DNA from: a virus
IMG/VR virus record: IMGVR_UViG_3300030329_003470
Coordinates: 96,001-160,000 of that record
DNA length: 64,000 bases
Direction: 5' to 3' (one strand)
The notes beneath the pieces were generated by a model, which saw only the letters and a program-made list of their open reading frames with translations, was not told where the DNA came from and ran no database searches. Within the stretch, counting starts at the first letter, position 1; every line of letters starts with the position of its first letter. The translations under genes were made by a program, and so were the position numbers. Below are positions 12,230 to 32,320 of this stretch, one piece after another.

Positions 12230-12235
12230 GAGATT

Positions 12236-13885: not shown

Positions 13886-13889
13886 TAAT

Positions 13890-14870: not shown

Positions 14871-14929
14871 TAATACCAAAAAATTTTTATCAGGTCGTTA
14901 AATCGCCATAATTATCGTATAATTGTGGT

Positions 14930-15244: not shown

Positions 15245-15245
15245 T

Positions 15246-15995
15246 ATGTCAAAAGGTGTTTTGTTGTTCTGTTTTAATACAGAAACTTGCGAGTATCATC
15301 GTATCGCTGAACGTTGTGTTGAACTAATTAAAAAAAATCTTAAACTAGAAATCACAATAGTAACAAATTTTGAAACTTTTAAAAAGTTTAAGCCTCTCGG
15401 CATGATCAATTATAGAATGATTGAGAACGAAACTGGAAATAAAAGACTCAATGAACAATGGCATAATTTAGATAGATGCCATGCATATGATTTATCTCCA
15501 TATGATACAACACTTTTAATGGATATTGATTATCTTCCATTTACAGATAATCTTTTAGAATACTTTAATGTTGACGAAGATTTTTTAATACACGACAAAA
15601 TACACGATTTAACTAATAAGGGTGTTTACAATTTTAGAAACAATTCAATTATTCCAATGCTATGGGCAACTGTTATTATTTTTAAAAAAACAGACAGAGC
15701 AAAAAGAATATTTGACACAGTAAAATATGTAAAACAATATTATCAACATTTTTGCGATTTATATAGAGTGGATTTTCGTAACTTTAGAAACGATTATGCT
15801 TTTTCAGTTGCTGTAAATCAAGTTAATGGACATACGCAACAAAAATTTTTACCTGGTAAGTTGCCAACTTTGCCTGGAATAGCAAAAGTTTTAGAAATTA
15901 CTGACACAGGTATTGTGTTTAAGTATGATGACAAAATTAATTACATAGAAAATCAAGATGTACACATCTTAGACAAGGAGATTGCAAATGTCTAA
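15246..15995 (+). CDS. GT-A fold glycosyltransferase-like (GT8-like)
   Basis: YDTTLLMDIDYL carries a DxD motif. It is a paralogue of the next gene (both start MSKGxLxFC). Confidence 0.6.
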   Translation: MSKGVLLFCFNTETCEYHRIAERCVELIKKNLKLEITIVTNFETFKKFKPLGMINYRMIENETGNKRLNEQWHNLDRCHAYDLSPYDTTLLMDIDYLPFTDNLLEYFNVDEDFLIHDKIHDLTNKGVYNFRNNSIIPMLWATVIIFKKTDRAKRIFDTVKYVKQYYQHFCDLYRVDFRNFRNDYAFSVAVNQVNGHTQQKFLPGKLPTLPGIAKVLEITDTGIVFKYDDKINYIENQDVHILDKEIANV

Positions 15996-16773
15996 AGGTT
16001 TTTTATGGTTCTGCCAGAACACTGACAAAGTAGATTATGTAAAATGCAGTATAGAGTTAGCAAAATCAATTAAAAAGTTTAATAAAGAAAATAATATTTG
16101 TGTTGTAACTGATAAAACGTTTGAATCAGAATACATTGACGTTGTAAAAGTAATGAACGCAGATGAAAGTGCTGAACATGAAGTAAAATGGGCAAATGAG
16201 TACAAAGCATTTCAATTATCACCTTTTACACACACAATTAAATTAGAATCTGATATGTTATGGACACAAAATACTGATTGGTGGTGGCATCATTTGTGGC
16301 AACACGATTTAGTATTTGCAGTTGACTGTAAAGATTACAAAGACAACACAATTAAAGACACAACTTACAGAAAATTATTTGTTAGAAACAATTTGCCAAA
16401 CATTTATAATGGTTTAAGTTATTTTAGAAGAAGTATTACAGCAAAAAACTTTTTTGATTTATGTGAAGTAATTACAAAAAACTGGCAAAAAGTGCGTGAT
16501 ACTGTATTAATTGGTTGCCATGACAAGTATCCAAGTACAGATGTTGTTTATGCACTTGCTTATAGAATAATTGATCCCACACAAAAACAATTAATTGACT
16601 ATCCATGGTTTAAGTTTATTCATAATAAACCTGCAATACAAGGAAATAATACTGATTATCTAATGCCAATAAAATTAAACAACAAAATTATAGTAGGCAC
16701 TCAAAGATTACATAGAGTATGGCATTATTTGGACAAAAATTTAACGGAGGAATTAGATGCCGGGGTTTTTTGA
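15988..16773 (+). CDS. GT-A fold glycosyltransferase-like (GT8-like) paralogue
   Basis: SPFTHTIKLESDML motif. Start at MSKGF (15988) after an AAGGAG SD. Confidence 0.6.
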   Translation: MSKGFLWFCQNTDKVDYVKCSIELAKSIKKFNKENNICVVTDKTFESEYIDVVKVMNADESAEHEVKWANEYKAFQLSPFTHTIKLESDMLWTQNTDWWWHHLWQHDLVFAVDCKDYKDNTIKDTTYRKLFVRNNLPNIYNGLSYFRRSITAKNFFDLCEVITKNWQKVRDTVLIGCHDKYPSTDVVYALAYRIIDPTQKQLIDYPWFKFIHNKPAIQGNNTDYLMPIKLNNKIIVGTQRLHRVWHYLDKNLTEELDAGVF

Positions 16774-17056
16774 AGCATTAGAAAATTCTAAACCAATAGA
16801 AAAAGTTCACACAGTTACTATACAAGGACAAAGTGTTGTAGTAACTTTAGAAAAGAAATTAGAAGTAATGCGACATGGAGAAGATGCGTATATGTGGAAA
16901 ACAGCAACTGAATTTGTGCTTAAACCACCGCCAAAGATTTTGCCACGATACAAAACTTTGAAAAAAACAGAAGAAAAAGGATATGAATTTTATAATAATG
17001 ATCCGTTTTATCCAAAAGGTATTGTAGAGGGAGGATTTAAATGGGTGCGAGAGTAA
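16757..17056 (+). CDS. Hypothetical protein
   Basis: 99-aa ORF overlapping both neighbours in the operon. Confidence 0.65.
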   Translation: MPGFFEALENSKPIEKVHTVTIQGQSVVVTLEKKLEVMRHGEDAYMWKTATEFVLKPPPKILPRYKTLKKTEEKGYEFYNNDPFYPKGIVEGGFKWVRE

Positions 17057-17940
17057 GAGTTTCAGATCTAGATTTTGTTTACATAAGTTACCTAGAGCCA
17101 AACAGAGAAGAAAATTGGGCAGATTTAAAAAATAAAGTGCCATGGGCAAAAAGAGTAGACGGAGTTGTAGGATTTGATTCTGCACACAAGGCCGCGGCGG
17201 AAAAAGCAGAAACAGATTTCTTTATATCAGTTGACGGTGATAATATTCTTGATGAAAGTTTTTTATTACAAACATTAGATTGGGATAAAACAAATCCAAA
17301 AGCAGTACATAGATGGAGAGCAAAAAATAATGTTAATGGTTTAATTTATGGAAATGGTGGATTAGTAGGATGGCCACGTGAAACTTGTTTGCAAATGCAA
17401 ACGCACGAAAACGCCAAAGATAAAAAAGCAGAAATAGACTTTTGTTGGACTGTGCCACATGAAAATTTAGCAAGTTGTTATTCAACCACTGTAATCAATA
17501 GTACAAAATCACAGGCATGGGTTGCTGGATACAGAGAAGGTGTTAAAATGAGTTTGGAACAAGGTGAACATATACCACCTATGGATTTTAATAAAAAAAT
17601 TTGGCCACAAAATTTAAGGATATTAACAACATGGATGACAATAGGTGCTGATGTTGAATACGGAAAGTATGCCATGTTGGGTGCAAGGATGGGTTGTTAT
17701 TCAACAACAGTTAACACAAACGAATGGATTCAGATTAGAGATTTAGAAAAAATGTCTGACTTGTATCATAATGCTGTTATTGAAGATAACATAGACGAAG
17801 ATTTAAAATTATACGGTGAAAGTTTAAGAAGACAATTAGATATACCAGTATCAGATTTAGACGAATATCAAAGTAAATTTTTTAAGTTTGTAATGCCACA
17901 AAAAAACAATAAAGGAGTGCAAGATCGTGAGTACCAGTGA
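17041..17940 (+). CDS. Glycosyltransferase-like protein (GT-A, DGD motif)
   Basis: YISYLEPN...FFISVDGDN...YGNGG...AWVAGYREGVKM. Homologous to the C-terminal half of 29040. Confidence 0.55.
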   Translation: MGARVRVSDLDFVYISYLEPNREENWADLKNKVPWAKRVDGVVGFDSAHKAAAEKAETDFFISVDGDNILDESFLLQTLDWDKTNPKAVHRWRAKNNVNGLIYGNGGLVGWPRETCLQMQTHENAKDKKAEIDFCWTVPHENLASCYSTTVINSTKSQAWVAGYREGVKMSLEQGEHIPPMDFNKKIWPQNLRILTTWMTIGADVEYGKYAMLGARMGCYSTTVNTNEWIQIRDLEKMSDLYHNAVIEDNIDEDLKLYGESLRRQLDIPVSDLDEYQSKFFKFVMPQKNNKGVQDREYQ

Positions 17941-19297
17941 TTATAAATCAGATGCTATGATGGCACAAAAGAAACTTGAAGAAGTTTCTCCTACGTTTTG
18001 CCTAGCAAAATGGAATCAAGTTTCATTACATCTACCAACTGGATTAACAAACAGTTGTTATCATCCGCCTTTGCACAAAATAGATGCCGCACAGTTGAAA
18101 AATAATCCTGCGGCACTGCACAACACTGCAGAAAAACTAGATCAAAGATTTAAAATGCTTCAAGGAGAACGTCCAGACGGGTGTTCTTATTGCTGGAAGA
18201 TAGAAGACACAGGACAAATGTCAGATCGACATTATCGTTCTGGAGAACCATGGGCAATGGAAGACTTTGAAGCAATTAAACAGAATCCAATGACCACAAG
18301 TTGGACCCCTAGGTACGTGGAAGTTAATTTTAACCATGCTTGTAATTTCAAGTGTAGTTATTGTTCGCCACAATTTTCCACTACCTGGGGTAAAGAAACA
18401 GAGCGTTATGGGGAGTTTCCAACCACACCTCCTCATAATGCTCCTGAACACTTCCAAGGCAGAAATCGTCCTATACCTAACAGAGAAGACAATCCTTATG
18501 TAGATGCTTTCTGGAAGTGGTGGCCAACATTGTACAAAAATTTAAAACATTTTAGAATGACAGGTGGAGAACCCATGATGGATCATAACACATACAAAGT
18601 ATTTCAGTACGTTATAGATCATCCCAAAGACGATTTACACTTGAATATCACAAGTAATATGTGTCCGCCAGATCCTAAATTAAAACAAAAGTATTTTAAT
18701 ATGTTACAAACCATATGTTTACAAGAGAAAGTGGAACACGTGATGCAGTTTGTAAGTGTAGATACATGGGGCAAACAAGCAGAGTATATACGTAACGGTT
18801 TGAATTTTAACTACATGATGGATAATGTGGAAGAATTTTTAGAACGTATTCCACATCGTAATTCCATAACCTTTATAATCACTTACAACAATTTAAGTGT
18901 TACAGGACTAGACAAATTATTAGCAAAGATACTCGAACTACGTAAAAAATATTCAAAAGATTATCAACGTGTATGGTTTGACATACCGTTATTAAGACAA
19001 CCTAAATGGCAACAGATAACATTATTGCCTGAGTCATATCAGGCTATACACGAAGCCAACATAGAATATATGAGAGAAAATTCTGGAGAGGACAAAGGAT
19101 TACACATATTCAAAGACTTTGAGATTCAAAAAATGCTACGCAATCTTGCTTACTGGAAAAAAAACGCAGACGCTAGTGCTGAACAAAAAAGAAACTTTTA
19201 CGCATTTTTTAACGAACACGATCGTAGACGTAGAACTAACTTTTTAAACACATTTCCAGAAATGGAAGAATTTTGGGTGGAGTGTAAAAACGCATGA
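17927..19297 (+). CDS. Radical SAM protein with N-terminal twitch domain (paralogue 1)
   Basis: FCLAKW..SCYH..CSYCW, then CNFKCSYC and TGGEP. Confidence 0.85.
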   Translation: MSTSDYKSDAMMAQKKLEEVSPTFCLAKWNQVSLHLPTGLTNSCYHPPLHKIDAAQLKNNPAALHNTAEKLDQRFKMLQGERPDGCSYCWKIEDTGQMSDRHYRSGEPWAMEDFEAIKQNPMTTSWTPRYVEVNFNHACNFKCSYCSPQFSTTWGKETERYGEFPTTPPHNAPEHFQGRNRPIPNREDNPYVDAFWKWWPTLYKNLKHFRMTGGEPMMDHNTYKVFQYVIDHPKDDLHLNITSNMCPPDPKLKQKYFNMLQTICLQEKVEHVMQFVSVDTWGKQAEYIRNGLNFNYMMDNVEEFLERIPHRNSITFIITYNNLSVTGLDKLLAKILELRKKYSKDYQRVWFDIPLLRQPKWQQITLLPESYQAIHEANIEYMRENSGEDKGLHIFKDFEIQKMLRNLAYWKKNADASAEQKRNFYAFFNEHDRRRRTNFLNTFPEMEEFWVECKNA

Positions 19298-20025
19298 AAA
19301 AAATAATAACAGCAGGTTGTAGTTTTACAAAATATAAATGGCCTTGTTGGTCTTCATACGTAAGTTGGTTTGAGCCTGAATATAATGTTGTTAATATTGG
19401 AGCATCTGGTAGTTCAAACGAAACAATTATGCGTTCAGTATACAATGCTGTAAACAAATGGAGTAATGTAGAAAAAGTTTATATTATGTGGTCAGAACCA
19501 AACAGATACGAAGTAGTTCATAATAAAATTGATACGTCAGTTAAAAAAGACGAATCAGTTACGTATTCTAGATGGGACCAGGATTTTGATTGGAATACCT
19601 TTTATGGTGGACATTATTATAAAGACAAGCATGAATATTATGTGCGTCATTTTCAGAATGAAAGACAAAACGATATTCGTATACTTGAAAGAATACTGTT
19701 TACACAAATGTATTTAGAAAAACATAATATTGAATATAAGATGATGTGTTATAAAGGTATTATTATTGCACACGATCAAAATGAAATGACTAACGGACAA
19801 AGAGCCTTGTACAATAAAATTGATTGGAATAAATTTATATTTTATAACAAATTTTACGGATTAAATGAATTTGCTGAAGACAACTGGCAAGATCAGTTTA
19901 ATAAACCAAATGACGAACATCCATTACCTCTTGCACACTATCATTGGGTAAAAGATGTTATGTATAAAAGTGATATTAAATGTCCTGATAAGGAATATGA
20001 GAAATTGAAACAATGGAAGATCTAG
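19294..20025 (+). CDS. SGNH/GDSL-like hydrolase or acyltransferase (GCSFT type)
   Basis: IITAGCSFT, GASGSSN and C-terminal DEHP. Confidence 0.55.
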   Translation: MKKIITAGCSFTKYKWPCWSSYVSWFEPEYNVVNIGASGSSNETIMRSVYNAVNKWSNVEKVYIMWSEPNRYEVVHNKIDTSVKKDESVTYSRWDQDFDWNTFYGGHYYKDKHEYYVRHFQNERQNDIRILERILFTQMYLEKHNIEYKMMCYKGIIIAHDQNEMTNGQRALYNKIDWNKFIFYNKFYGLNEFAEDNWQDQFNKPNDEHPLPLAHYHWVKDVMYKSDIKCPDKEYEKLKQWKI

Positions 20026-21356
20026 AATATAAAAAACAAATATTAGATACCAAGTCAGCAAGTTTTTGTGGTGCTAAATGGTTTAATGCGACTATATGGT
20101 TGGGCAGTGGTATGACCACAAGTTGTCATCACCCGTTACCACACAAAATAGATTTAGAAGAAATAAAAACAAATCCAAGTGCTATACACAATACTAAAGA
20201 AAAGAAAGAACAACGTAGACAAATGCAGTGTGGAGAAAGACCTGCTGGTTGCGAATATTGTTGGAAGATTGAAGATATAGGTAGAGATGCTATAAGTGAT
20301 AGAGTATATAAATCAAAAATATTTGACAATAATCATTTAAATGAAGCATTTAATGAAAGTCATAATATTGATTGGAACTTAAAAACTTTAGAAATAGCAT
20401 TTGATAGGACTTGTAATTTTGCTTGTTCTTACTGCAATCCTGCATTCAGTACAACATGGGCAAGAGATATTAAACAAAAAGGTCCATACACAGATATGAC
20501 TACAGACGGAAGAAATCATTTTACTCACAGTCATGAATCAGCAGAGCCTTACAAAAAGGATGAAACCAATCCATATGTTGAAGCATTTTACACTTGGTGG
20601 GAAACAGATTTACACAAAAGTTTAGATGAATTAAGAATAACAGGGGGTGAACCAATGATGTCACCTAACTTATGGAGACTGTTAGATTGGATAGAAACAC
20701 AAGGACACAGAATGAATCCGCGTATGCGTATTGCAATTAATTCTAATTTAGGTGCAAAACAAGATATTATAGATCGTTTTAAAAAGAAATTAAAAAACTT
20801 TGATAGATTTCATTTGTATACTAGTAACGAAGCAACATTTAGACAAGCAGAATATATTAGAGACGGATTAAATTATGGAGATTGGTATAGTCAAGTGTTA
20901 CACATGATGGTTGATAAAGTACCAGCAGAAATTCACAATATGTGTACAATCAATGCATTGTGTTTAGAATCACTGGCTGAATTTTTAGAAAAAATTGTAT
21001 GGTTAAAAAATGCAAGTAAGGTTTACGGACCAACAATAAATTATACACTTAATATTTTAAGGTTTCCAAGTTTTCAATCTCCTCTTGTACTACCAGACGA
21101 CTTAAGAAATAAATTTAAGACCGATATTGAACAGTTTTTAAATAATAATAAGAAACATTTAGAAGAGATGGAGATTAACCACACACAAAGATTAATTGAT
21201 TATTTAGATGTTGTTAAAACACCACACGCTGGTGCGGCAGAAAGAGAAAAATTACAGAAAGATTTTAAAACATTTTATAGTCAATATGATAAAAGAAGAG
21301 GAAAGGACTTTGAAAAAACTTTCCCAATTATAGGAGAATGGTACCGTGGCATATGA
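20013..21356 (+). CDS. N-twitch radical SAM (paralogue 2)
   Basis: FCGAKW..SCHH..CEYCW; CNFACSYC; TGGEP. Confidence 0.85.
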   Translation: MEDLEYKKQILDTKSASFCGAKWFNATIWLGSGMTTSCHHPLPHKIDLEEIKTNPSAIHNTKEKKEQRRQMQCGERPAGCEYCWKIEDIGRDAISDRVYKSKIFDNNHLNEAFNESHNIDWNLKTLEIAFDRTCNFACSYCNPAFSTTWARDIKQKGPYTDMTTDGRNHFTHSHESAEPYKKDETNPYVEAFYTWWETDLHKSLDELRITGGEPMMSPNLWRLLDWIETQGHRMNPRMRIAINSNLGAKQDIIDRFKKKLKNFDRFHLYTSNEATFRQAEYIRDGLNYGDWYSQVLHMMVDKVPAEIHNMCTINALCLESLAEFLEKIVWLKNASKVYGPTINYTLNILRFPSFQSPLVLPDDLRNKFKTDIEQFLNNNKKHLEEMEINHTQRLIDYLDVVKTPHAGAAEREKLQKDFKTFYSQYDKRRGKDFEKTFPIIGEWYRGI

Positions 21357-22644
21357 GTATGGGGCAAAAGAGCCTGAAAAATTAAAGATTAAAGACATGA
21401 CCCCTAAAGAAAAGGAGTTGTTAATAGATTCGGAAACGTTCTGTATGTTACCGTGGATGCACCTTCACGCATATCCAGATGGTAGAGCATACCCTTGTTG
21501 TTTTGCATTTGATCCTTACCCTGTTGGCGATTTAAACAAACAAAGTTTAAAAGAAGTATTCAACGGTGAAAAAATGAAAAAGATGAGGTTAAGAATGTTG
21601 AATAACAAAAAATCACGTGAGTGTTTGAAATGTTACGATCAAGAAAAATCTGGATTCTTTTCATTACGTTTAAGTTCTAATAAACATTTTGGTCACAACG
21701 TACCTTTAGTACATAACACTCTACCAGACGGTACTGCTGATTTTGTAATGAAGTATTGGGATATAAGGTTTAGCAATCTCTGTAATATGGCTTGTAGAAG
21801 TTGTGGTACGTGGTTCAGTTCTAATTGGTATGAAGATCATAAAAAATTAACTGGTGCACCACCGCCCCATGCAAAAATAATGAAAGTTGGTAGAACTACT
21901 AATGATATGTGGGAGCAGATGTTAGAATCATTTGAACATTCTGAACAGTTTTATTTTGCAGGTGGAGAACCAATTATAATGGAGGAGCATTATAGAATAT
22001 TAAAAGAGTTAGATAAACGTAAAATGTATCACGTAAGATTAATTTATAATACTAATTTTAGTAAAACAAAATTTAAAGATATTGATGTATTTGAGTTATG
22101 GAATAAATTTGATTCGGTTTCAGTTGGTGCAAGTTTAGATGCAGAAGGACCAAGAGCAGAATTAATGCGTAAAGGAACTAAATGGGAAGAAACTATTGCT
22201 AATAGAAAAAGAATGATGGAAGTTTGTCCACAAGTTGATTTTTATATTAGTTCAACTGTTGGATTGACTAATAGTTTACACGTGTGTGACTTTCATAAAA
22301 GTTGGGTAGAACAAGGATTAATAAAACCACAAGACTTTAATTTTAATTTGTTACAGCACCCTATTTGGCAAAGAATGGATATACTACCACCAGAACACAA
22401 ACAGCGAGTAAAAGAAAGATATGAAGAACATTTTGTATGGTTAAAAAATCAAGATCCGCTAACAAGAGCAACTAAAGGATTTGAATCTGCATTAGATTGG
22501 ATGTTTAAAACTGATAATCAAAAACATTTAGAATTATTCTTTGCTAATACAAAAAGATATGATGAAATAAGAAATGAAAATACCATAGAAGTATTTCCAG
22601 AATGGAAAGAATTATTTGACAAATATGATAAGAATAAAACCTAA
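21346..22644 (+). CDS. N-twitch radical SAM (paralogue 3)
   Basis: FCMLPW..PCC..CLKC; CNMACRSC; AGGEP. Confidence 0.85.
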   Translation: MAYEYGAKEPEKLKIKDMTPKEKELLIDSETFCMLPWMHLHAYPDGRAYPCCFAFDPYPVGDLNKQSLKEVFNGEKMKKMRLRMLNNKKSRECLKCYDQEKSGFFSLRLSSNKHFGHNVPLVHNTLPDGTADFVMKYWDIRFSNLCNMACRSCGTWFSSNWYEDHKKLTGAPPPHAKIMKVGRTTNDMWEQMLESFEHSEQFYFAGGEPIIMEEHYRILKELDKRKMYHVRLIYNTNFSKTKFKDIDVFELWNKFDSVSVGASLDAEGPRAELMRKGTKWEETIANRKRMMEVCPQVDFYISSTVGLTNSLHVCDFHKSWVEQGLIKPQDFNFNLLQHPIWQRMDILPPEHKQRVKERYEEHFVWLKNQDPLTRATKGFESALDWMFKTDNQKHLELFFANTKRYDEIRNENTIEVFPEWKELFDKYDKNKT

Positions 22645-25906: not shown

Positions 25907-26010
25907 TGTTTAATTGGATAAAAAAACTAATTGATAGAATTAAGTCTGAATTAGCATATAGAAAAAGACTTAAAGAGTTAAAGAAAAAAGACCCGTTTAT
26001 ATACAAGTAA
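25906..26010 (+). CDS. 34-aa basic microprotein ending KKKDPFIYK
   Basis: MFNWIKKLIDRIKSELAYRKRLKELKKKDPFIYK. TAATG coupling to the upstream gene, GGAGG SD, fills the gap. Confidence 0.75.
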   Translation: MFNWIKKLIDRIKSELAYRKRLKELKKKDPFIYK

Positions 26011-26013
26011 AAA

Positions 26014-26661
26014 ATGGACATACTTAATAAAGATAAACTCAAGCAAGTACTTGAGAAATGGAAGGGACACCCATCTATTACGGAGTTAATGGATCGTTTT
26101 GACAAACTTCAAACATATACAAAAAAGAAGTTTGAAAAAAAACCAAAATATGATTTAATTGAACTGCATAATATAGATGTTAAAGAAGATCCTGTAAGAC
26201 CTGAGTTAACTTTAGAGTTTAGACAAAAACATGGCAGAAAGATATATGGACTAAAAGACGAAGAAGGAGATATAGCGGCAATTATGTGTTTTGCTTTTAC
26301 ACACAACGTACCAAAAACAGTTGAAGAAATGGATAGATTAAGTTATGATGCTTGGATGCAATCAACACACAGAGCAGGTGTGCAAGGAGATATTGCAATA
26401 GCATACACAGTTTGGGCAAAAAAAAGAGGCGGCGGAAAAGCCATAGTAAATGAAGTGTATAAAATGATTAAAAAATCACATCACTTAAACAGATTAGTTA
26501 CACTATCGCCTTTAACTGATATGGCAAGAAAGTTTCATATTAGAAATGGAGCAAAAGAATTACAAGTAAACGAAGAAACACAAAATTTTGAATATGATAT
26601 TACGTTAGAAGATTGGGAGAAAGCATTAGATAAAGCAAAAAGGTTTTTTAAAATAAAATGA
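26014..26661 (+). CDS. Hypothetical protein (possible GNAT-like fold)
   Basis: EDPVRPEL...IAYTVWAKKRGGGK...VTLSP; the RGxG-like segment resembles a GNAT acetyl-CoA loop. Confidence 0.45.
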   Translation: MDILNKDKLKQVLEKWKGHPSITELMDRFDKLQTYTKKKFEKKPKYDLIELHNIDVKEDPVRPELTLEFRQKHGRKIYGLKDEEGDIAAIMCFAFTHNVPKTVEEMDRLSYDAWMQSTHRAGVQGDIAIAYTVWAKKRGGGKAIVNEVYKMIKKSHHLNRLVTLSPLTDMARKFHIRNGAKELQVNEETQNFEYDITLEDWEKALDKAKRFFKIK

Positions 26662-28121
26662 GAGTATTAGGTATTAATTGTATGAATCACGATGCCGCAA
26701 TGGCAGTAGTAGATTTTAGTAGTGGCATAGGAGAAGTACTATGGGCCGCTCATGCTGAACGTTATTCAAAAGTAAAAAATGATTTTCATTTAAATTGGGC
26801 AATAGTAAATGAAGCAAAAACATACGGTCCTTTTGACAAAGTTGTTTATTATGAAAAACCTTTATTAAAAAAAACAAGACAATTATATGCAGGACAATAC
26901 AATGATGCATTTAGTTATACTGAAATGCCACAGAGACATTGTGGTATATTTGGAATTAAAATAGATGAGTTTGTACTACATCATGACAGTCATGCCGCGG
27001 CAGGATATTTTACATCACCTTTCAAAGAAGCCACAATACTTACAGTGGACGCAATAGGTGAATGGGATACTGTTTCTATATCAACTGCTGAAAAAGTTTG
27101 GATAGAAAGAAAAGAAACTATAAAGTATCCACACAGTTTAGGTATATTGTATTCTGCATTTACACATCGTTGTGGATTAAAGCCTGCAGAAGAAGAATAT
27201 ATTTTAATGGGCATGGCGGCATATGGCAAGCCAATTTATAAAGAGGACATATATGAAGATTTTGTAGAACAAAGTCCTTTTAAACTCAAAAAGAATTTGC
27301 ACAGAGGATTAAGTGATTGGCATCCAGAAGCAGATGTTATGGATCTTGCCGCAAGTATACAATCAGTTACAGAAGAATGTCTTGCAGGACTATGGCATAG
27401 AGCGAGTAAGTATGGATCACGTAATTTAGTATATGCTGGAGGAGTAGCATTAAATTGTGCCGCCAACAGAGTACTTGCAAATTTGGGATTGTTTGACAAT
27501 ATATGGATTATTCCAAACCCAGGTGATGCAGGAAGTTCGTTAGGTTGTATTGCCGCAAGTGAGAAAACATTTATTAATTGGAAAAGTCCGTTCTTAGGAC
27601 ACAACATAGAAGGTGAATATCCAGTAGATAAAATTATAAAAGAATTAAAAGAAAATAAGATGGTAGGAGTTGCAAATGGTAGAGCAGAGTTTGGTCCCAG
27701 GGCACTTGGTAATAGATCTCTTTTAGCAGACCCACGTGGTCCAGAAATTAAGGATTTGGTAAATGCAATTAAGAAAAGACAGAAGTTTAGACCCTTTGCA
27801 CCAGCCATATTAGAAGAGGATGTAAACGACTATTTTGAACTACCTAAAGGTGTTTTAAACACCCCTTATATGCAATATACAGCGGCGTGTACGCATGGTA
27901 AAGACTTTCCTGCCATAATACACTACGATAACACAAGTCGCGTACAAACCGTCTCTAAAAGCGATAATGAAGGGTTTTATGAACTGCTTAAAGCATGGAA
28001 AAAAGAAACAGGGTGTCCTATGTTGTTAAACACGAGTTTGAATATTAAGGGTCAACCAATAGTAAATGACGTTAATGATGGTAAAGCATTTACCAAAAAA
28101 TATGGAGTAAAAGTATTATAA
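26658..28121 (+). CDS. Carbamoyltransferase (NodU/CmcH/TobZ family)
   Basis: HDAA..AERY, HHDSHAAAGYF, DAIGE, EYILMGMAAYG, GGVALNC, PGDAG, EFGPRALGNRS and LLNTSLN motifs. Confidence 0.92.
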   Translation: MRVLGINCMNHDAAMAVVDFSSGIGEVLWAAHAERYSKVKNDFHLNWAIVNEAKTYGPFDKVVYYEKPLLKKTRQLYAGQYNDAFSYTEMPQRHCGIFGIKIDEFVLHHDSHAAAGYFTSPFKEATILTVDAIGEWDTVSISTAEKVWIERKETIKYPHSLGILYSAFTHRCGLKPAEEEYILMGMAAYGKPIYKEDIYEDFVEQSPFKLKKNLHRGLSDWHPEADVMDLAASIQSVTEECLAGLWHRASKYGSRNLVYAGGVALNCAANRVLANLGLFDNIWIIPNPGDAGSSLGCIAASEKTFINWKSPFLGHNIEGEYPVDKIIKELKENKMVGVANGRAEFGPRALGNRSLLADPRGPEIKDLVNAIKKRQKFRPFAPAILEEDVNDYFELPKGVLNTPYMQYTAACTHGKDFPAIIHYDNTSRVQTVSKSDNEGFYELLKAWKKETGCPMLLNTSLNIKGQPIVNDVNDGKAFTKKYGVKVL

Positions 28122-29068
28122 TGAGATTTTTAGTAACAGGCGGATTTGGTTTTATTGGATCACAAGTAGTAGAACAATTATGCAAAGAACATTCAGTAAC
28201 TGTGCTGGATAATCATGACACATATGGCATAATGGATAAAACAGAAGCAGACAAACTTTATAAATGGAGATCTCGTAATTGGACTAGCAACGTAACTCAT
28301 CATAGAGGAGATGTAATGGATAGAATGTCTTGCTTAAGATCATTCAGTCATCGTCCAGATATTGTAATACATCTTGCCGCATATCCTAGAGCAAAGATAG
28401 TTGATAATGATCCAATATTAGGAATACCTAAAATTATAAATGGAACTACAAATTTATTATGGCATTCAACAAACTTTGGTGTAAGAAAATTTGTTTATGT
28501 TAGTAGTAGTATGGTATATGGAGATTTTAAAGATGGTATGAAAGAAGACGGAAATACAAAACCTAAAAACATTTACGGAGAGGCAAAGTTAGCAGGAGAA
28601 AGATTTACAAAATTATTTCAAAAAAGAGATAATTTAGATTATATTGTTATACGTCCTAGTGGTGTTTACGGTCCAGGAGATATGCCTGATAGAGTTGTAA
28701 GTAAGTTTTTTGAAAAAGCAATGAAGAATGATCCAATAACATTACACAATGGAGAGAATAAAGTTGACTTTACATACATAGAAGACACAGTGCAAGGTAT
28801 AATAAAAGCCGCAACGTCGTCAGTAGCCAATGTTAGTTTTAACATAACCCAAGGTAACGCAACAAGTTTAAGAAAACTTGCAGAAACAATTATAGAAATT
28901 ACAGGTAGTGAGTCAGAACTTGAAGATATTGGCAATCATGATTTGTATCCAATGCGTGGAACACTTGATATATCTAGAGCAAAAGACTTAATTGGATACG
29001 AACCACAATATGAATTAAAAGAAGGATTGAAAAAATATTATGACTGGATTCGACAGTATTCAAGTTAG
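28121..29068 (+). CDS. NAD-dependent nucleotide-sugar epimerase/dehydratase
   Basis: LVTGGFGFIGS, SSSMVYG, YGEAK and VYGPG motifs. Confidence 0.9.
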   Translation: MRFLVTGGFGFIGSQVVEQLCKEHSVTVLDNHDTYGIMDKTEADKLYKWRSRNWTSNVTHHRGDVMDRMSCLRSFSHRPDIVIHLAAYPRAKIVDNDPILGIPKIINGTTNLLWHSTNFGVRKFVYVSSSMVYGDFKDGMKEDGNTKPKNIYGEAKLAGERFTKLFQKRDNLDYIVIRPSGVYGPGDMPDRVVSKFFEKAMKNDPITLHNGENKVDFTYIEDTVQGIIKAATSSVANVSFNITQGNATSLRKLAETIIEITGSESELEDIGNHDLYPMRGTLDISRAKDLIGYEPQYELKEGLKKYYDWIRQYSS

Positions 29069-30344
29069 GTTTAAAAATATTGAGTTTTACAAATCACCAT
29101 TAGCAAATACTAGGACAGTTCCTTTTGTTGACAGTTATTTCGATATACTAAAGGCAGTTGTGAATGATGTTAAAACAGAATACTTTTGGTTCTTTGCAAG
29201 TTTTTGTAAATTAGATACAAACTTTGATTGGAATTACATTCCAGAACAACACGAAAAAGATCAAATACACGTTTGGTATACAACTCATCCTATGGGCGGA
29301 TTAAACAAAGAAGGTAATGTGTTTTTAATACCTACACAAAAGTTTAAAGAACAAATGAATAGTTTAAAATTTTTACGTGATTTTAAAGATATAAACTATC
29401 ATGCTTCACCTGTTTTAGAAGTACAACCAATTACAGTAACTTATTTTGAATTAAAAGATCCTTATGTAAACTATCATACAAATCCTGTTTTATACAAATG
29501 GTTGGTTAACAAAGATTTACAAGGAATAAAACTTCCAAATTTTTATCCAAGTTTTTGGGAAGACGAAAAAATTTATACATTTGGCAAAACAAAAGATATT
29601 ATGTTAGTGCCTTATCGTAAAGATTTAAAACAGTTTTATGATATAGATAGAGCAGTTCATTATGATTATGAATACGATTCTAAACCAATGGATATAGTTT
29701 TTATTTCATATGATGAACCAAATGCTGAAAAACGTTATAAAGAACTTAAAGCAAAATACCCAAAAGCAAAATGGAGCAAAAATGTAATAGGGCAAACACT
29801 TGCTTATGTCACCGCGGCACTAAAGAGTGAAACTGATTATTTTTTTGCAGTATTTCCTAAAATTGAAATTGTTGATAGTTTTAAATTTGACTTTCAACCA
29901 GATAGAATGAAAAATCCTTGTCATTATATTTTTAATTGTAAAAATCCTGTTAATGATTTAGAATACGGACATGGTGCAGTATTGTTGTATAATAAAAAAT
30001 TAGTATTAGAAACTAAAGATCCTGGTTTAGACTTTACACTTTCAAAACCTCATGATTGGGTACCTCAATTAAGTGCTATAAATCATTTCAACGAATCTCC
30101 TTGGTTGGCATGGAGAACTGCTTTTAGAGAAGTTGTAAAATTATGCCAATATAAGCCAACGGTTGAATCTAAATTTAGATTAAAAAAATGGTGCCAACTT
30201 GGTAAAGGAGAAAATGCAGATTGGGTATATAAGGGTGCAATTGACGGAAAAGAATTTTACGAAAAAAACAGTGACAACTACGACAAATTAATGTTATCAT
30301 ACAACTTTGAATGGTTAAAACAATACTATGAATCAAAATATTAA
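29040..30344 (+). CDS. Two-domain glycosyltransferase-like protein; C-terminal domain lacks DxD
   Basis: DIVFISYDEPN...YFFAVFPK...YGHGAV...AWRTAFREVVKL aligns with 17041. Confidence 0.5.
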   Translation: MTGFDSIQVRFKNIEFYKSPLANTRTVPFVDSYFDILKAVVNDVKTEYFWFFASFCKLDTNFDWNYIPEQHEKDQIHVWYTTHPMGGLNKEGNVFLIPTQKFKEQMNSLKFLRDFKDINYHASPVLEVQPITVTYFELKDPYVNYHTNPVLYKWLVNKDLQGIKLPNFYPSFWEDEKIYTFGKTKDIMLVPYRKDLKQFYDIDRAVHYDYEYDSKPMDIVFISYDEPNAEKRYKELKAKYPKAKWSKNVIGQTLAYVTAALKSETDYFFAVFPKIEIVDSFKFDFQPDRMKNPCHYIFNCKNPVNDLEYGHGAVLLYNKKLVLETKDPGLDFTLSKPHDWVPQLSAINHFNESPWLAWRTAFREVVKLCQYKPTVESKFRLKKWCQLGKGENADWVYKGAIDGKEFYEKNSDNYDKLMLSYNFEWLKQYYESKY

Positions 30345-31452
30345 AATACCTTTTGTAGATTTATATCCGCAGTATGAGGAACTGAAATCAGAAATAGATA
30401 TAGCAATAACAGATATTATTGATAGAACAGACTTTATAACAGGACCAACTGTAGAACGTTTTGAAAAATCAATTTGTGATTATACTGGAGCAGAAGCCTG
30501 TGCTGGTTTAGGATCAGGAACCAATGCTTTAGTATGTGCCTTGAAAGCACTAGGAATAGGACCAGGTGACCATGTAATGACAGTAGGACATACATTTGTT
30601 TCAACTACTGAAGCAATAGTAAATGTAGGAGCAACACCGTTGTTTGTAGATATCGATGAATTTTATCATTTGGACACAGAAGAGATGAGGAAAGTAACCG
30701 GGTCAAAAGAATTTGCATTACCTGAGTTGAAAGCAATTCTATTTGTAGATTTGTATGGTCAAACACCGGACATAGATAAGATTAAGGCATTTGCTCAAGA
30801 GTATAATTTAAAAGTAATTGAAGATGCCGCACAAAGTTTTGGAGCAAAATATAAAAATAAAACAGTCGGTAGTCTAGTAGATTTAACTTGTTTCTCATTT
30901 AATCCTGTTAAAAATTTAGGTGCTATGGGAGATGCTGGTGCAGTTACTGGCAATAAAGAGTTAATTGATAAAGTTAAAATGTATAGAGATCACGGAAGAC
31001 GAACAAAGTTTGAATATGATGTAGTAGGATATAATTCTAGAATAGATAACTTACAAGCAGTTGTTATAGAATCTAAATTAAAAAAATTAAACGAATGGAC
31101 AGAAAAGAAAAGAAAAATTTGTCACAGATACACTGCTGAATTAAAGGGAGTAGTAAAATGTCCTAAAGAAGCACAGTGGAGTTATCATACCTATTATGTG
31201 TATGTAATTGAAACACCAAAAGGAACTAGAGATGCATTACAAAAACATTTGAAAGAAAAAGGAATTCAAACAAACATACATTATAGATTTCCTACACACA
31301 CCACAAAAGCATTTGAACAATATGGTACAGAATTGCCAAGGACTGAATATATGTGTAATAATATTTTAAGTTTGCCTTGCTATTTTACATTACCAAAACA
31401 TCATCAGGATTATATTATAAAAGCAATAAAGGAATTTTATGAAAACAATTAA
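30328..31452 (+). CDS. DegT/DnrJ/EryC1/StrS PLP-dependent sugar aminotransferase
   Basis: GSGTNAL, TFVST, IEDAAQSFG, FSFNPVKNLGAMGDAG and GYNSRID motifs. Confidence 0.92.
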   Translation: MNQNIKIPFVDLYPQYEELKSEIDIAITDIIDRTDFITGPTVERFEKSICDYTGAEACAGLGSGTNALVCALKALGIGPGDHVMTVGHTFVSTTEAIVNVGATPLFVDIDEFYHLDTEEMRKVTGSKEFALPELKAILFVDLYGQTPDIDKIKAFAQEYNLKVIEDAAQSFGAKYKNKTVGSLVDLTCFSFNPVKNLGAMGDAGAVTGNKELIDKVKMYRDHGRRTKFEYDVVGYNSRIDNLQAVVIESKLKKLNEWTEKKRKICHRYTAELKGVVKCPKEAQWSYHTYYVYVIETPKGTRDALQKHLKEKGIQTNIHYRFPTHTTKAFEQYGTELPRTEYMCNNILSLPCYFTLPKHHQDYIIKAIKEFYENN

Positions 31453-32320
31453 TATTAGTTTAGTAGGTGCAGGATATTGGGGTTCTAAGATTGCTAAAGA
31501 ATTAAAAATTATTCAAGGAGTTGGTGACATTGAAATAATAGATATCAAAGATGGCAAAACAATTGATGATGTAAATTATGATAATGTAATATTAGCCACT
31601 CCTGCTTGGGATCATTATATGCAAACCATCGCTTTATTACAAAGAGATAAAAACGTTTATGTAGAAAAACCCTTATCACTTACTTGTACAGATTGTTGTG
31701 TAATAAAAAGTTTTTTAAAAGATCAAACATTAATGGTTGGGCATATATTTTTATATAACGATAGAGTTAAAAAAATAAAAGAACTTTTACCTCAAATAGG
31801 CAAAATACAATATATAGAATCTAATAGATTAAATTGGGGAAGATTTCAAAAGAAGATTAGTACATTACACAGTCTTGCTCCACACGATGTTAGTATCATA
31901 CACTATCTACTTGGTGTACATACTTTTGAAAATATAAAACATACCGGGCATAAGTTTAGTAAATTTGAACAGTATGATAGAGATGAATTTGAATTTACTG
32001 TAAACAATATTCCTGTTAAGTTTAATTTAAGTTGGTATCATCCTGATAAAATAAGAACAATGGCAATAATTGGCGAGTCTGGTACTTTGTTTTGGGATGA
32101 AGAAGCACGAACAATTAAACTAACAACAAATATATGGAATAATGAAAGATTTAATTATGAACCAACTGTTGAAAAATTTGATATAGAATCAAACCCTTTG
32201 CGTAATGAATTAAAAGAGTTTGTAGATTGTATTATTACAAAAAGAACACCCTTTACAGATGTTGATAATGCTATTGATGTTGCTAAAAATTTAGATTTAC
32301 TTGCTAAACGTCTTGTTTAA
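31439..32320 (+). CDS. Gfo/Idh/MocA family oxidoreductase
   Basis: LVGAGYWG, ATP..H, VYVEKP, VGH and LAPHD motifs. Confidence 0.9.
   Translation: MKTINISLVGAGYWGSKIAKELKIIQGVGDIEIIDIKDGKTIDDVNYDNVILATPAWDHYMQTIALLQRDKNVYVEKPLSLTCTDCCVIKSFLKDQTLMVGHIFLYNDRVKKIKELLPQIGKIQYIESNRLNWGRFQKKISTLHSLAPHDVSIIHYLLGVHTFENIKHTGHKFSKFEQYDRDEFEFTVNNIPVKFNLSWYHPDKIRTMAIIGESGTLFWDEEARTIKLTTNIWNNERFNYEPTVEKFDIESNPLRNELKEFVDCIITKRTPFTDVDNAIDVAKNLDLLAKRLV

What the first reader, a model, noticed from the sequence alone, without database searches (positions are those of the whole stretch)
15246..32320. 17-kb coupled operon for building and heavily tailoring a glycan, directly after the tail genes
Seen: an almost gapless + strand run of four GT-like genes, five twitch radical SAMs, two SGNH-like genes, a GNAT-like gene, a carbamoyltransferase, an epimerase/dehydratase, a DegT aminotransferase and a Gfo/Idh/MocA oxidoreductase. 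No flippase, polymerase or exporter is present. Known: these families make amino-, acyl- and carbamoyl-sugars, and the twitch radical SAM BtrN oxidises an aminocyclitol. Inference: a phage-encoded pathway for an unusual, radical-SAM-tailored glycan on virion proteins (cytoplasmic, so no exporter is needed) or on host surface structures. I know of no characterised pathway with this composition.
Basis: partly seen in the sequence, partly recalled or inferred. Interest (0 to 1): 0.82.

Follow-up and report, generated by a model that had tools for sequence, protein, structure and literature searches.

The report
Phage radical-SAM sugar-tailoring operon
An uncultured giant ocean phage carries, right behind its tail-fibre genes, a tightly packed 17-kb operon of sugar-adding and sugar-decorating enzymes built around five never-studied iron-sulfur "radical SAM" enzymes; it most likely makes an unusual decorated sugar chain, but what that chain is attached to has not been shown.

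Summary
From 15246 to 32320 (really from 14930) there are 17 coupled + strand genes, one conserved 34-codon gene and an upstream 104-aa gene, all predicted soluble. All five radical SAMs belong to NCBIfam NF033640 (twitch Fe-S domain at the N-terminus), a family with no characterised member that I could find. Carbamoyltransferase, SDR epimerase, DegT and Gfo/Idh/MocA are firm. Three GT-A glycosyltransferases are supported, and a fourth is a paralogue without the DxD motif. The SGNH and GNAT calls are weak but consistent.

A core (2 GT8-like, GT-A, five rSAM orthogroups, SGNH, micro-peptide, carbamoyltransferase) is syntenic behind fibre genes in two phage clades that are about 50% identical. 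The amino-sugar end varies between relatives.

New evidence: in cellular genomes the rSAM family sits in glycan loci, once fused to the O-antigen ABC transporter Wzt. The micro-peptide (invariant DPFIYK end) tracks the carbamoyltransferase, not the rSAMs.

The glycan-tailoring reading is supported (about 0.75). A virion protein as the acceptor is only the leading guess (about 0.4). The chemistry of the rSAMs is unknown.

The scan has found and followed up this same operon type on other phage DNA, so this is another instance with added context.

The parts
13833..13839 (+). Last T4-type late-promoter-like motif (ATAAATA) before the operon
   Evidence: ATAAATA occurs only four times on the + strand of 1-33000, each shortly upstream of an ORF start in the fibre block: 13 to 57 nt for 5270, 7517 and 13833, and 28 nt before the 59-aa ORF for 12026. 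None lies inside the operon. No + strand terminator-like site in 13500-33400.
13890..14870 (+). u326: Ser/Thr/Gly/Ala-rich 326-aa protein between the fibre gene and the operon; candidate acceptor (speculative)
   Evidence: No Pfam, PHROG or NCBIfam hit. Conserved upstream of the operon in both clades. Covered by a deep metatranscriptome contig (depth 176, 13904-14503).
14930..15244 (+). u104: conserved 104-aa protein, 1 nt before g1; function unknown
   Evidence: Homologues at 26-83% identity directly precede g1 in both clades.
15246..15995 (+). g1: GT8-like (GT-A) glycosyltransferase, paralogue of g2
   Evidence: hhalign with the g2 family 98.8%. Invariant D93, D95 (D-x-D). No Pfam or PDB sequence hit of its own.
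15982..16773 (+). g2: GT8/glycogenin-like glycosyltransferase
   Evidence: Profile against PDB: glycogenin-1, E 1e-4. Invariant E89, D91.
16757..17056 (+). g3: 99-aa protein, unknown; conserved in clade 1, replaced by a gene of about 120 aa in clade 2
17041..17940 (+). g4: GT-A fold glycosyltransferase with invariant D-G-D-N
   Evidence: AF2 model pLDDT 90.4. Foldseek hits: K4CP, SunS/ThuS, RmlT, TarP, WrtF, PBCV-1 A64R, prob 0.97-1.0. Invariants.
17927..19297 (+). rS1: N-terminal-twitch radical SAM
   Evidence: NF033640, E 8e-100. Orthogroup spans both clades.
19294..20025 (+). g6: SGNH-like, paralogue of g11; present in only some relatives
   Evidence: DUF6071 E 1.7e-5, below cut-off. Aligns with the g11 family; invariant Gly/Ser, Asn, His. 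Variable presence.
20013..21356 (+). rS2: N-terminal-twitch radical SAM, sister group of rS1
   Evidence: NF033640, E 1e-88. Clade support 100.
21346..22644 (+). rS3: N-terminal-twitch radical SAM
   Evidence: NF033640, E 1e-118. SPASM at residues 33-97, before the rSAM core at 141-295.
22616..23959 (+). rS4: N-terminal-twitch radical SAM
   Evidence: NF033640, E 1e-94. Clade support 100.
23941..25107 (+). rS5: N-terminal-twitch radical SAM
   Evidence: NF033640, E 4e-110. AF2 pLDDT 94.8. Family-wide invariant Cys 11, 71, 74 (Cys30 in at least 90%), plus CxxxCxxC at 119/123/126 and GGE.
25100..25906 (+). g11: SGNH-like protein (core gene)
   Evidence: Family invariants G9, S11, N58, H244, H250. 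GDSL PDB E 0.066. A clade-2 paralogue hits Lipase_GDSL_2 at E 0.0017.
25906..26010 (+). 34-aa basic micro-protein with invariant C-terminal DPFIYK; probable carbamoyltransferase accessory peptide
   Evidence: 39 distinct versions in relatives. Third codon positions vary while residues are fixed. Co-occurs with CmT in 55 loci; no locus has CmT without it. At least 94 cluster representatives in the protein library.
26014..26661 (+). g12: GNAT-like acyltransferase (weak call)
   Evidence: R-G-G-G-K-A motif and invariant block. Atlas neighbours carry Acetyltransf_1/MCD. No HMM or PDB hit.
26658..28121 (+). CmT: CmcH/NodU-type O-carbamoyltransferase
   Evidence: Carbam_trans_C E 7e-54, Carbam_trans_N E 5e-40. 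PDB: NovN, GdmN, TobZ.
28121..29068 (+). SDR NDP-sugar epimerase/dehydratase, nearest to UDP-hexose or UDP-uronate 4-epimerases
   Evidence: Pfam Epimerase E 1.5e-42. PDB best: UDP-glucose 4-epimerase, UDP-GlcA 4-epimerase, MoeE5, WbpP.
29040..30344 (+). g15: two-domain protein; C-terminal half is a g4 paralogue without the DxD
   Evidence: hhalign A4 against A6 99.7%. F-P-K stands in place of D-G-D.
30328..31452 (+). DegT-type PLP aminotransferase, nearest to C3-aminotransferases
   Evidence: Pfam E 5e-97. PDB: 7b0d, QdtB, 2oga (a transaminase I take from memory to be DesV), WbpE.
31439..32320 (+). Gfo/Idh/MocA oxidoreductase, nearest to UDP-GlcNAc 3-dehydrogenase
   Evidence: Pfam 35.1 bits against cut-off 24. 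NF040723 E 5e-24, below cut-off.

Best explanation
The operon is a late-expressed, wholly cytoplasmic assembly and tailoring line for an unusual glycan.

Inferred steps:
1. The distal, exchangeable genes turn host UDP-sugars into an epimerised 3-amino sugar: SDR 4-epimerase-like enzyme, Gfo/Idh/MocA 3-dehydrogenase-like enzyme, DegT C3-aminotransferase-like enzyme.
2. Two GT8-like enzymes and one GT-A enzyme, possibly helped by the DxD-less paralogue g15, build a short chain on an acceptor.
3. The chain is decorated by O-carbamoylation (CmT with its DPFIYK micro-peptide partner), by N- or O-acyl handling (GNAT-like g12, SGNH-like g6 and g11), and by five different SAM-dependent radical reactions (rS1-rS5). 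Each rSAM carries one auxiliary 4-Cys cluster. That feature is typical of enzymes which oxidise, dehydrate, epimerise or cross-link unactivated C-H positions without oxygen.

No lipid-carrier, flippase or exporter gene is present. The operon is fixed behind the fibre genes and has no promoter-like signal of its own. I therefore take the most likely acceptor to be a virion protein, either a fibre or the neighbouring Ser/Thr-rich u326.

Shown: gene content, family memberships, conservation, and cellular contexts. Inferred: the order of steps, the sugar identities, the rSAM chemistry and the acceptor. My confidence is about 0.75 that the product is a tailored glycan and about 0.4 that it sits on the virion.
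For: - Family assignments.
- Tight coupling and soluble proteins.
- Core synteny g1-g2-g4-rS1-rS2-rS3-rS5/rS4-g11-micro-CmT in 77 viral loci of two clades, behind fibre, u326 and u104 homologues.
- Five rSAM orthogroups, each spanning both clades, so they are old and non-redundant.
- All keep CxxxCxxC, GGE and the N-terminal Cys.
- Cellular N_Twi_rSAM genes lie in glycan loci. G104 has RmlC, RmlD, Wzm and a Wzt(ABC+Wzt_C)-rSAM fusion, three more rSAMs, TylF-type and other methyltransferases, and a WbsX GT. G554 has a GDSL protein, four rSAMs, an MT-GT2 fusion and a GT-C. G170 has a GT2 and an SDR.
- CmT's nearest solved relative, NovN, is named for novobiocin; from memory it carbamoylates the noviose sugar and TobZ acts on an aminoglycoside, while GdmN acts on geldanamycin.
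- No PGT, Wzx or ABC-2 in the record.
- Late-promoter-like motifs occur only upstream, and there is no + terminator.
- Exact-match fragments of g4, rS2, g11 and CmT occur in marine RNA libraries.
- Precedent for phage virion glycosylation by phage GTs: Freeman et al. 2023, PMC10527164, as cited in PMC12619734.
Against: - No chemistry or proteomics exists for this phage or any relative.
- The record is 55% complete, so missing export genes prove little, and host machinery could be used.
- Position next to fibre genes may reflect conserved T4-like genome architecture rather than function.
- No N_Twi_rSAM has a known substrate. The nearest solved folds are mostly peptide-modifying or nucleotide-modifying enzymes.
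- One cellular context pairs the family with dioxygenases and a secreted fibre-like protein rather than GTs.
- The GT8, SGNH and GNAT calls rest on weak or indirect matches.
- RNA-library contigs cannot prove transcription or timing.
Confidence: 0.5

Rival explanations
1. Host-surface remodelling. The enzymes act on the host's own undecaprenyl-linked O-antigen or capsule intermediates in the cytoplasm, and the host's transporter exports the altered glycan. This could block superinfection, or stop progeny from sticking to debris.
For: In G104 the same rSAM family sits in an ABC-transporter-type O-antigen locus and is fused to Wzt. G554 adds a membrane GT-C. G170's rSAM, GT2 and SDR lie next to prophage recombination genes. 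The phage genes have no need for their own carrier or exporter. A second glycan island is noted elsewhere in this genome (unchecked).
Against: In a lytic T4-like phage, late co-expression with fibre genes leaves little time for surface turnover. The position behind the fibre genes is conserved across two clades. No membrane-associated protein is in the operon.
Confidence: 0.22
2. Protein or peptide modification. The twitch rSAMs act directly on a virion protein (fibre, u326) or a small peptide, making cross-links, epimerised or oxidised residues. The sugar enzymes then add a glycan to that modified site, giving a glyco-RiPP-like product.
For: Nearest solved folds are CteB, anSME, SkfB and SuiB. 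g4's fold hits include the S-glycosyltransferases SunS and ThuS. In G482 two family members sit with six PhyH/WelO5 dioxygenases, a methyltransferase and a T9SS-secreted protein with a fibre chaperone domain. Conserved small genes (u104, g3, the micro-peptide) lie in the operon.
Against: No RiPP recognition element was detected; the N-terminus is the twitch domain. The micro-peptide tracks the carbamoyltransferase, not the rSAMs: L045, L069, L072 and L073 have rSAMs but neither the micro-peptide nor CmT. It has no Cys. Three of four cellular contexts contain GTs.
Confidence: 0.13
3. Diffusible small molecule. The operon makes an aminoglycoside-like or nucleoside-sugar metabolite during infection.
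For: The composition recalls aminoglycoside and moenomycin-type pathways: carbamoyltransferase near TobZ and NovN, a MoeE5-like epimerase, DegT, Gfo/Idh/MocA, GTs and a twitch rSAM. BlsE, named for blasticidin S biosynthesis (from memory its substrate is a sugar nucleoside), is among the fold hits.
Against: No cyclitol synthase, resistance gene or exporter was found. The operon has a fixed place in the structural late block. The cellular contexts are polysaccharide loci.
Confidence: 0.07
4. DNA hypermodification. The glycan is built on a modified base of the phage DNA.
For: Phage GTs can hypermodify DNA with diverse glycans (Pyle et al. 2024, cited in PMC12619734). The same window holds a 7-deazaguanine module with a GT (unchecked here).
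Against: No thymidylate-synthase or hydroxymethylase family gene is in the record. No DNA-binding or base-flipping domain was detected. The operon lies in the late structural block, apart from the deazaguanine genes. Cellular homologues are in surface-glycan loci.
Confidence: 0.05

Closest known systems
NCBIfam NF033640, N_Twi_rSAM (twitch domain-containing radical SAM protein)
   Same: All five rSAMs score far above the family cut-off over the full model. They have an N-terminal Cys-rich twitch domain, CxxxCxxC and GGE.
   Different: The family has no characterised member that I could find. It is rare in the cellular genomes sampled: 3 of 401 Pseudomonadota and 5 of 401 Bacteroidota. Here it occurs as five fixed orthogroups.
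Twitch/SPASM radical SAM enzymes with solved structures (anSMEcpe, CteB, SkfB, SuiB, BtrN, MoaA) and viperin/BlsE
   Same: Partial TIM-barrel rSAM core; best Foldseek matches at prob 1.0. One auxiliary cluster with four Cys, as I recall for BtrN.
   Different: The auxiliary domain precedes the core instead of following it. TM is 0.42 or less and identity 22% or less. BtrN itself is not among the listed top matches. The substrate is unknown.
Virus-encoded virion glycosylation: mycobacteriophage capsid and tail-tube glycans (Freeman et al. 2023, PMC10527164) and chlorovirus PBCV-1 capsid glycans (A64R, PDB 2p72)
   Same: Virus-encoded cytoplasmic GTs near structural genes, with no lipid carrier needed. 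g4's fold matches A64R among others.
   Different: As far as I recall, those systems have a few GTs and methyltransferases and no radical SAMs or carbamoyltransferase. Glycosylation has not been shown here.
ABC-transporter-dependent O-antigen loci with chain-end modification read by Wzt (for example PMC9445017)
   Same: Cellular relatives of the rSAMs lie in such a locus and one is fused to Wzt with its carbohydrate-binding domain. Glycan modification takes place in the cytoplasm.
   Different: The phage operon has no Wzm/Wzt, no initiating transferase and no ligase.
SxtI-SxtJ-SxtK type carbamoyltransferase modules and DUF5989 (PF19451) small proteins
   Same: A small protein with a P-F-I-Y motif near its C-terminus stands beside a CmcH/NodU-type carbamoyltransferase. 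This held in 10 of 10 bacterial DUF5989 loci examined and in 55 of 55 phage loci with CmT. SxtK is listed as 'unknown' and proposed to act with SxtI (PMC2679770).
   Different: The phage peptide has no transmembrane helix. It fails the Pfam model and is not linked by hhalign (prob 16%). No SxtJ-like membrane protein is in the operon.
WbpB/WbpE and GnnA/GnnB type 3-oxidation and 3-transamination of UDP-sugars
   Same: A Gfo/Idh/MocA enzyme nearest to UDP-GlcNAc 3-dehydrogenase stands next to a DegT nearest to the C3-aminotransferases QdtB, 2oga (from memory DesV) and WbpE.
   Different: Scores are below the equivalog cut-offs. This pair is present in only a few relatives (L002, L032), so it is an exchangeable accessory.

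Membership tests
NF033640 N_Twi_rSAM | Full-length HMM score above the curated cut-off (170 bits) | tested here: met
   298 to 397 bits for all five.
NF033640 N_Twi_rSAM | Radical SAM CxxxCxxC and GGE motifs, with the Cys-rich twitch domain N-terminal of the core | tested here: met
   Invariant C119, C123, C126 and G181-G182-E183. C11, C71 and C74 are invariant and C30 is in at least 90% of 73 sequences. Pfam SPASM lies at residues 11-97, before Radical_SAM.
NF033640 N_Twi_rSAM | Radical SAM partial TIM-barrel fold | tested here: met
   AF2 pLDDT 94.8. Foldseek prob 1.0 to anSME, CteB and viperin.
   The twitch domain is N-terminal. BtrN is absent from the listed top matches. The best matches have TM 0.42 or less.
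GT8 (glycogenin/LgtC type) for g1 and g2 | Significant match to GT8 members, and a DxD motif | tested here: inconclusive
   The g2 profile hits glycogenin at E 1e-4 over the first 112 positions. g1 is linked only through g2. D-x-D or E-x-D is invariant. No Pfam hit even at E 10.
GT-A fold glycosyltransferase (GT2-like) for g4 | GT-A Rossmann-like fold with a DxD motif | tested here: met
   Model pLDDT 90. Foldseek prob 0.97-1.0 to K4CP, SunS, RmlT, TarP and A64R. Invariant D65-G-D67. The Pfam GT2 hit is only E 0.085.
SGNH/GDSL hydrolase for g6 and g11 | Block I Gly-x-Ser, block III Asn, block V His; HMM match | tested here: inconclusive
   Invariant G9, S11, N58 and H244/H250. HMM and PDB matches are weak (E 1.7e-5 to DUF6071, E 0.066 to a GDSL protein). 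No structure was predicted.
GNAT acyltransferase for g12 | Acyl-CoA binding motif A (R/Q-x-x-G-x-G/A) and the GNAT fold | tested here: inconclusive
   The motif R-G-G-G-K-A is present and invariant. Atlas neighbours carry Acetyltransf_1 in 19-60% of members. No HMM or PDB hit. The fold was not predicted.
CmcH/NodU O-carbamoyltransferase | Both Carbam_trans_N and Carbam_trans_C domains above Pfam cut-offs | tested here: met
   138 and 182 bits. PDB relatives NovN, GdmN and TobZ. The first 100 or so residues of the N-domain model are not matched.
DUF5989 / SxtK for the micro-peptide | Match to PF19451, including its transmembrane helix | tested here: not met
   No hit at E 10 or lower in the phage record. 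hhalign prob 16%. Only the P-F-I-Y motif and the link to a carbamoyltransferase are shared.
Wzx/Wzy or ABC-transporter surface-polysaccharide locus | Initiating phosphoglycosyltransferase and a flippase or ABC exporter | tested here: not met
   PF02397, PF00953, PF01943 and PF01061 gave no hit in the 196.6-kb record; controls were positive. Wzy was not tested, and the record is 55% complete.
RiPP maturation cassette | A precursor peptide co-inherited with the rSAM maturases, and a recognition element | tested here: not met
   The only strongly conserved micro-peptide follows the carbamoyltransferase, not the rSAMs. No RRE-type domain was detected in the Pfam or NCBIfam scans. u104 and g3 were not tested as substrates.

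The most novel reading that the evidence does not exclude
The five N-terminal-twitch radical SAM enzymes are a new class of glycan-editing enzymes. They carry out five distinct oxygen-independent C-H functionalisations on a sugar chain that GT8-like enzymes start directly on a virion fibre protein in the cytoplasm. This would give a very abundant group of ocean phages a chemically unprecedented carbamoylated, acylated and radical-edited glycan coat that shapes adsorption or shields against defence. The same enzyme family would perform chain-end or in-chain editing of bacterial O-antigens before Wzt-dependent export.
Probability: 0.3. Interest if true: 0.85.

Novelty: new variant of a known kind. 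Interest (0 to 1): 0.62.

Why it matters
The rS5 protein alone has more than 7,600 relatives at E 1e-10 or better in public metagenome proteins, so the cassette is common in uncultured aquatic phages. Yet the central enzyme family has no known reaction.

If the product is a virion glycan, phage glycobiology would extend from a few GTs to a 17-gene tailoring line with radical chemistry. That would bear on host recognition and on how marine phages evade defences.

The link to O-antigen loci, including a Wzt fusion, gives enzymologists a defined place to look for the substrate. The micro-peptide link may also help explain the long-unexplained SxtK-type partners of carbamoyltransferases.

Tried and rejected
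- Megablast of the 17 kb against cultured phage records gave no match. tblastn found only Vibrio phages K566 and K567 at 23% identity. Their locus has four N-twitch-like rSAMs but no homologue of the GTs or CmT.
- The genome-contig scan returned only short MAG contigs that look like binned phage DNA. They were not used as host evidence.
- An alignment of the five paralogues was too divergent for the locus finder.
- Profile-against-PDB searches for g1, g4 and g12 found nothing meaningful.
- Sigma-70-like promoters and terminators are no more frequent than in shuffles.
- I first read the micro-peptide as a possible rSAM substrate or Tyr primer for the glycogenin-like GTs. I dropped this as the main reading after the co-occurrence count and the DUF5989 comparison. 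Homology to DUF5989 could not be shown either.
- Metatranscriptome contigs cover only fragments. They cannot show a transcript, its start or its timing, and parts without cover mean nothing.
- The careful ML tree did not finish, so the quick IQ-TREE result was used. Long-branch extra paralogues are placed unreliably.
- Literature searches for N-terminal twitch enzymes, rSAMs in O-antigen loci and rSAM-rich jumbo-phage operons found nothing relevant.
- The N-terminal domain of g15, g3 and u104 remain without any assignment. The Atlas gave nothing for u326.

Full report
**Setting.** The window is bases 96001-160000 of a 196.6-kb IMG/VR viral record that CheckV rates 55% complete. Earlier notes of this scan call it an uncultured T4-like giant ocean phage; I did not re-test that. 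The + strand from base 3 to 32320 is one block. It holds a large virion protein, three paralogous fibre-like proteins and other structural genes (PHROG hits), followed by the operon. It converges on a minus-strand block at 32297.

**Observation.**
- Seventeen ORFs run from 15246 to 32320. Of the 16 junctions, 15 overlap or abut.
- The only gap (25907-26013) holds a 34-codon gene with its own Shine-Dalgarno sequence. It overlaps the stop of g11.
- A 104-aa gene (14930-15244) ends 1 nt before g1 and travels with the operon in relatives.
- None of the proteins has a TM-like hydrophobic stretch.

**Firm family assignments.**
- Pfam gives the carbamoyltransferase, SDR epimerase/dehydratase, DegT and Gfo/Idh/MocA.
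- NCBIfam places all five radical SAMs in NF033640, N_Twi_rSAM, at 298-397 bits against a cut-off of 170.
- Pfam SPASM matches lie before the radical SAM core.
- In an alignment of 73 family members, three N-terminal Cys are invariant and a fourth is present in at least 90%. CxxxCxxC and GGE are also invariant. This fits one auxiliary [4Fe-4S] cluster.

**The genes without Pfam hits.**
- g1 and g2 are paralogues (hhalign 98.8%). The g2 family profile finds glycogenin (GT8) in the PDB at E 1e-4. Both keep an acidic x-D motif.
- g4 gave a confident AF2 model (pLDDT 90.4) with a GT-A fold. The best matches are chondroitin polymerase K4CP, SunS/ThuS, RmlT, TarP, WrtF and chlorovirus A64R. D-G-D-N is invariant.
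- The C-terminal half of g15 is homologous to g4 (99.7%) but has F-P-K where g4 has D-G-D. It may therefore be non-catalytic.
- g6 and g11 form one family with invariant Gly-x-Ser, Asn and His, as in SGNH blocks I, III and V. Database matches are weak.
- g12 has a GNAT-type R-G-G-G-K-A motif and GNAT-bearing neighbours in the ESM Atlas.
- g3, u104 and the N-terminal half of g15 remain unassigned.

It has three graded caveats: g15 lacks the DxD, the SGNH call is weak, and the GNAT call is weak.

**Sugar chemistry suggested by nearest relatives (inference).**
- DegT is closest to 7b0d and to the C3-aminotransferases QdtB, 2oga (a 'Transaminase' that I take from memory to be DesV) and WbpE.
- The Gfo/Idh/MocA protein is closest to archaeal UDP-GlcNAc 3-dehydrogenase (E 5e-24, below cut-off). 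Together the pair looks like a 3-oxidation and 3-transamination module.
- The SDR is nearest to UDP-glucose, UDP-GlcA and UDP-GlcNAc 4-epimerases, including MoeE5 and WbpP.
- CmT is nearest to NovN, GdmN and TobZ.
- No nucleotidyltransferase is in the record, so host NDP-sugars would be the input.

**Relatives.**
- A scan of IMG/VR returned 77 loci. tblastn and ORF maps show a fixed core in one clade at roughly 60-95% identity and in a second at roughly 30-60%: g1, g2, a small gene, g4, rS1, rS2, rS3, rS5/rS4, g11, the micro-gene and CmT.
- The distal genes (SDR, g15, DegT, GFO), g6 and g12 come and go.
- Relatives add an APS-kinase-like P-loop protein, further SGNH-like genes, extra N-twitch rSAMs, a canonical rSAM with C-terminal SPASM, and a B12-binding rSAM.
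- A fibre paralogue, a u326 homologue and a u104 homologue precede g1 in both clades wherever upstream sequence is held.
- A quick ML tree recovers rS1, rS2, rS3, rS4 and rS5 as separate groups (SH-aLRT 98-100), each containing both phage clades. rS1 and rS2 are sisters. The five are old, distinct and co-inherited. This argues for five different jobs.

**Cellular contexts of the rSAM family (new here).** The family is rare. It was found in 3 of 401 sampled Pseudomonadota and 5 of 401 Bacteroidota genomes, and some of those hits are binned phage contigs. I examined four chromosomal contexts:
- G104, on a contig that also carries DnaE and AccA: RmlC, RmlD, Wzm, a single 854-aa ORF joining Wzt (ABC plus the Wzt_C carbohydrate-binding domain) to an N-twitch rSAM, three more rSAMs, a TylF-type and another methyltransferase, and a WbsX glycosyltransferase.
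- G554: a GDSL-like protein, four rSAMs, a methyltransferase-GT2 fusion and a GT-C-like membrane protein.
- G170: one rSAM beside a GT2 and an SDR, next to prophage recombination genes.
- G482: two rSAMs with six PhyH/WelO5-type dioxygenases, a methyltransferase, and a T9SS-secreted protein carrying a fibre-chaperone domain.

Three of the four point to glycans. The fourth keeps a protein substrate possible.

**Structure of the rSAM.** rS5 folds confidently (pLDDT 94.8). Its nearest solved relatives are CteB, viperin, anSMEcpe, SkfB, SuiB, BlsE and MoaA, at TM 0.42 or less and identity 22% or less. It sits in the SPASM/twitch-viperin neighbourhood and has no close solved relative. BtrN is not a specific match.

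**The micro-peptide.**
- The 34-aa product of window:25906-26007 occurs in 60 of the loci, in 39 distinct versions. All end in D-P-F-I-Y-K.
- Third codon positions and the stop codon vary while the residues stay fixed. Selection therefore acts on the peptide.
- It is more conserved between clades than any enzyme of the operon.
- It co-occurs with CmT in 55 loci. No locus has CmT without it. Four of the five peptide-only loci end within about 1.5 kb. Loci with rSAMs but no CmT (L045, L069, L072, L073) lack it.
- Notes from earlier in this scan suggested a likeness to SxtK/DUF5989, and I tested this. DUF5989 was found in 60 of 301 Pseudomonadota genomes. All 10 loci examined have a homologue of this CmT within about 0.6 kb. 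The proteins end A-P-F-I-Y-T-L-F after a transmembrane helix.
- The Pfam model does not hit the phage record, and hhalign sees no relation.
- I read the peptide as a TM-less functional analogue, possibly a remote relative, of the carbamoyltransferase partner. I do not read it as a DUF5989 member or as an rSAM substrate.
- SxtK itself has no known function (PMC2679770).

**Expression signals.**
- TATAAATA is depleted in the window (2 sites against about 10 expected).
- The relaxed late-promoter core ATAAATA occurs four times on the + strand of 1-33000. Each lies shortly before an ORF start in the fibre block, 13 to 57 nt upstream (12026 precedes the small 59-aa ORF at 12054). The last is at 13833, before u326. 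None lies inside the operon.
- No + strand terminator-like site lies between 13500 and 33400. Read-through from late promoters is therefore the simplest reading (inference).
- Marine RNA libraries hold exact-match fragments of u326, g4, rS2, g11 and CmT, and a deep contig over u326. Contigs cannot prove transcription or rank genes.

**Target.**
- The record has no phosphoglycosyltransferase, Wzx, ABC-2 permease or thymidylate-synthase-family gene.
- Together with the soluble proteins and the fixed place behind the fibre genes, this makes a cytoplasmic protein acceptor the leading idea. It parallels mycobacteriophage and chlorovirus virion glycosylation (A64R).
- Use of host lipid-linked intermediates and exporters is not excluded. 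The G104 context favours that alternative.
- DNA and small-molecule products are less likely, for the reasons given under the rivals.

**Verdict.** The feature is real, intact and conserved. It is a virus-encoded glycan-tailoring pathway of unusual composition whose key enzymes have no known reaction. The same operon type has already been found and followed up by this scan in other phage genomes. This report adds three things: the cellular glycan-locus contexts including the Wzt fusion, the orthogroup tree, and the test of the micro-peptide's link to the carbamoyltransferase.

Noticed in passing
window 13890-14870: u326, an unassigned Ser/Thr/Gly/Ala-rich protein just before the operon, is covered by a 643-nt marine metatranscriptome contig at depth 176. 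Pieces over operon genes have depths of 47 or less, apart from a 73-nt CmT fragment at 76. It may be an abundant late structural protein.
   Followed up: partly
window 5270, 7517, 12026, 13833 (+): ATAAATA occurs only four times on the + strand of 1-33000, each shortly before an ORF start in the fibre block. Full TATAAATA is depleted in the window (2 sites against about 10 expected). This looks like T4-type late promoters.
   Followed up: partly
window 12054-12230: An unlisted 59-aa ORF (starts M-A-T-K-Q-E) fills most of the 202-nt gap between two fibre-block genes. It lies directly after a late-promoter-like motif.
   Followed up: no
L100 8579-11143 (-), genome G104 contig C19: A single 854-aa bacterial ORF fuses the O-antigen ABC-transporter ATPase Wzt (ABC_tran plus Wzt_C) to an N-terminal-twitch radical SAM. 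Three more family members follow in tandem.
   Followed up: partly
L103 1614-14604, genome G482: A Bacteroidota chromosome has six PhyH/WelO5-type Fe/2OG dioxygenases, a methyltransferase, two N-twitch rSAMs, and a T9SS-secreted protein with a Peptidase_S74 fibre-chaperone domain. This may be a protein-tailoring cluster.
   Followed up: no
L105 (Vibrio phage K566, OZ196521.1 161548-168284): The cultured 255-kb Vibrio phages K566 and K567 carry four N-twitch-like radical SAM genes among hypothetical genes. They could give a tractable system for the enzyme family, although no GT or CmT homologues of this operon were found in that locus.
   Followed up: partly
L073 11752-13992; L048 3754-4752; L012 14668-15105: Relatives of the operon add a 746-aa B12-binding radical SAM, a 332-aa radical SAM with a C-terminal SPASM domain, and an APS-kinase-like P-loop protein. 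Some cassettes therefore hold seven or more radical SAM genes.
   Followed up: partly
L079-L082: Short contigs carrying this phage operon are binned into MAGs labelled Flavobacterium, Polynucleobacter, Halobacteriovoraceae and Undinarchaeota. This is probably binning contamination and not host evidence.
   Followed up: no
L106-L115: Bacterial DUF5989 proteins are nearly identical across genomes (mean column identity 91%). All 10 examined lie within about 0.6 kb of a CmcH/NodU carbamoyltransferase, usually with a small membrane-protein gene between them.
   Followed up: partly
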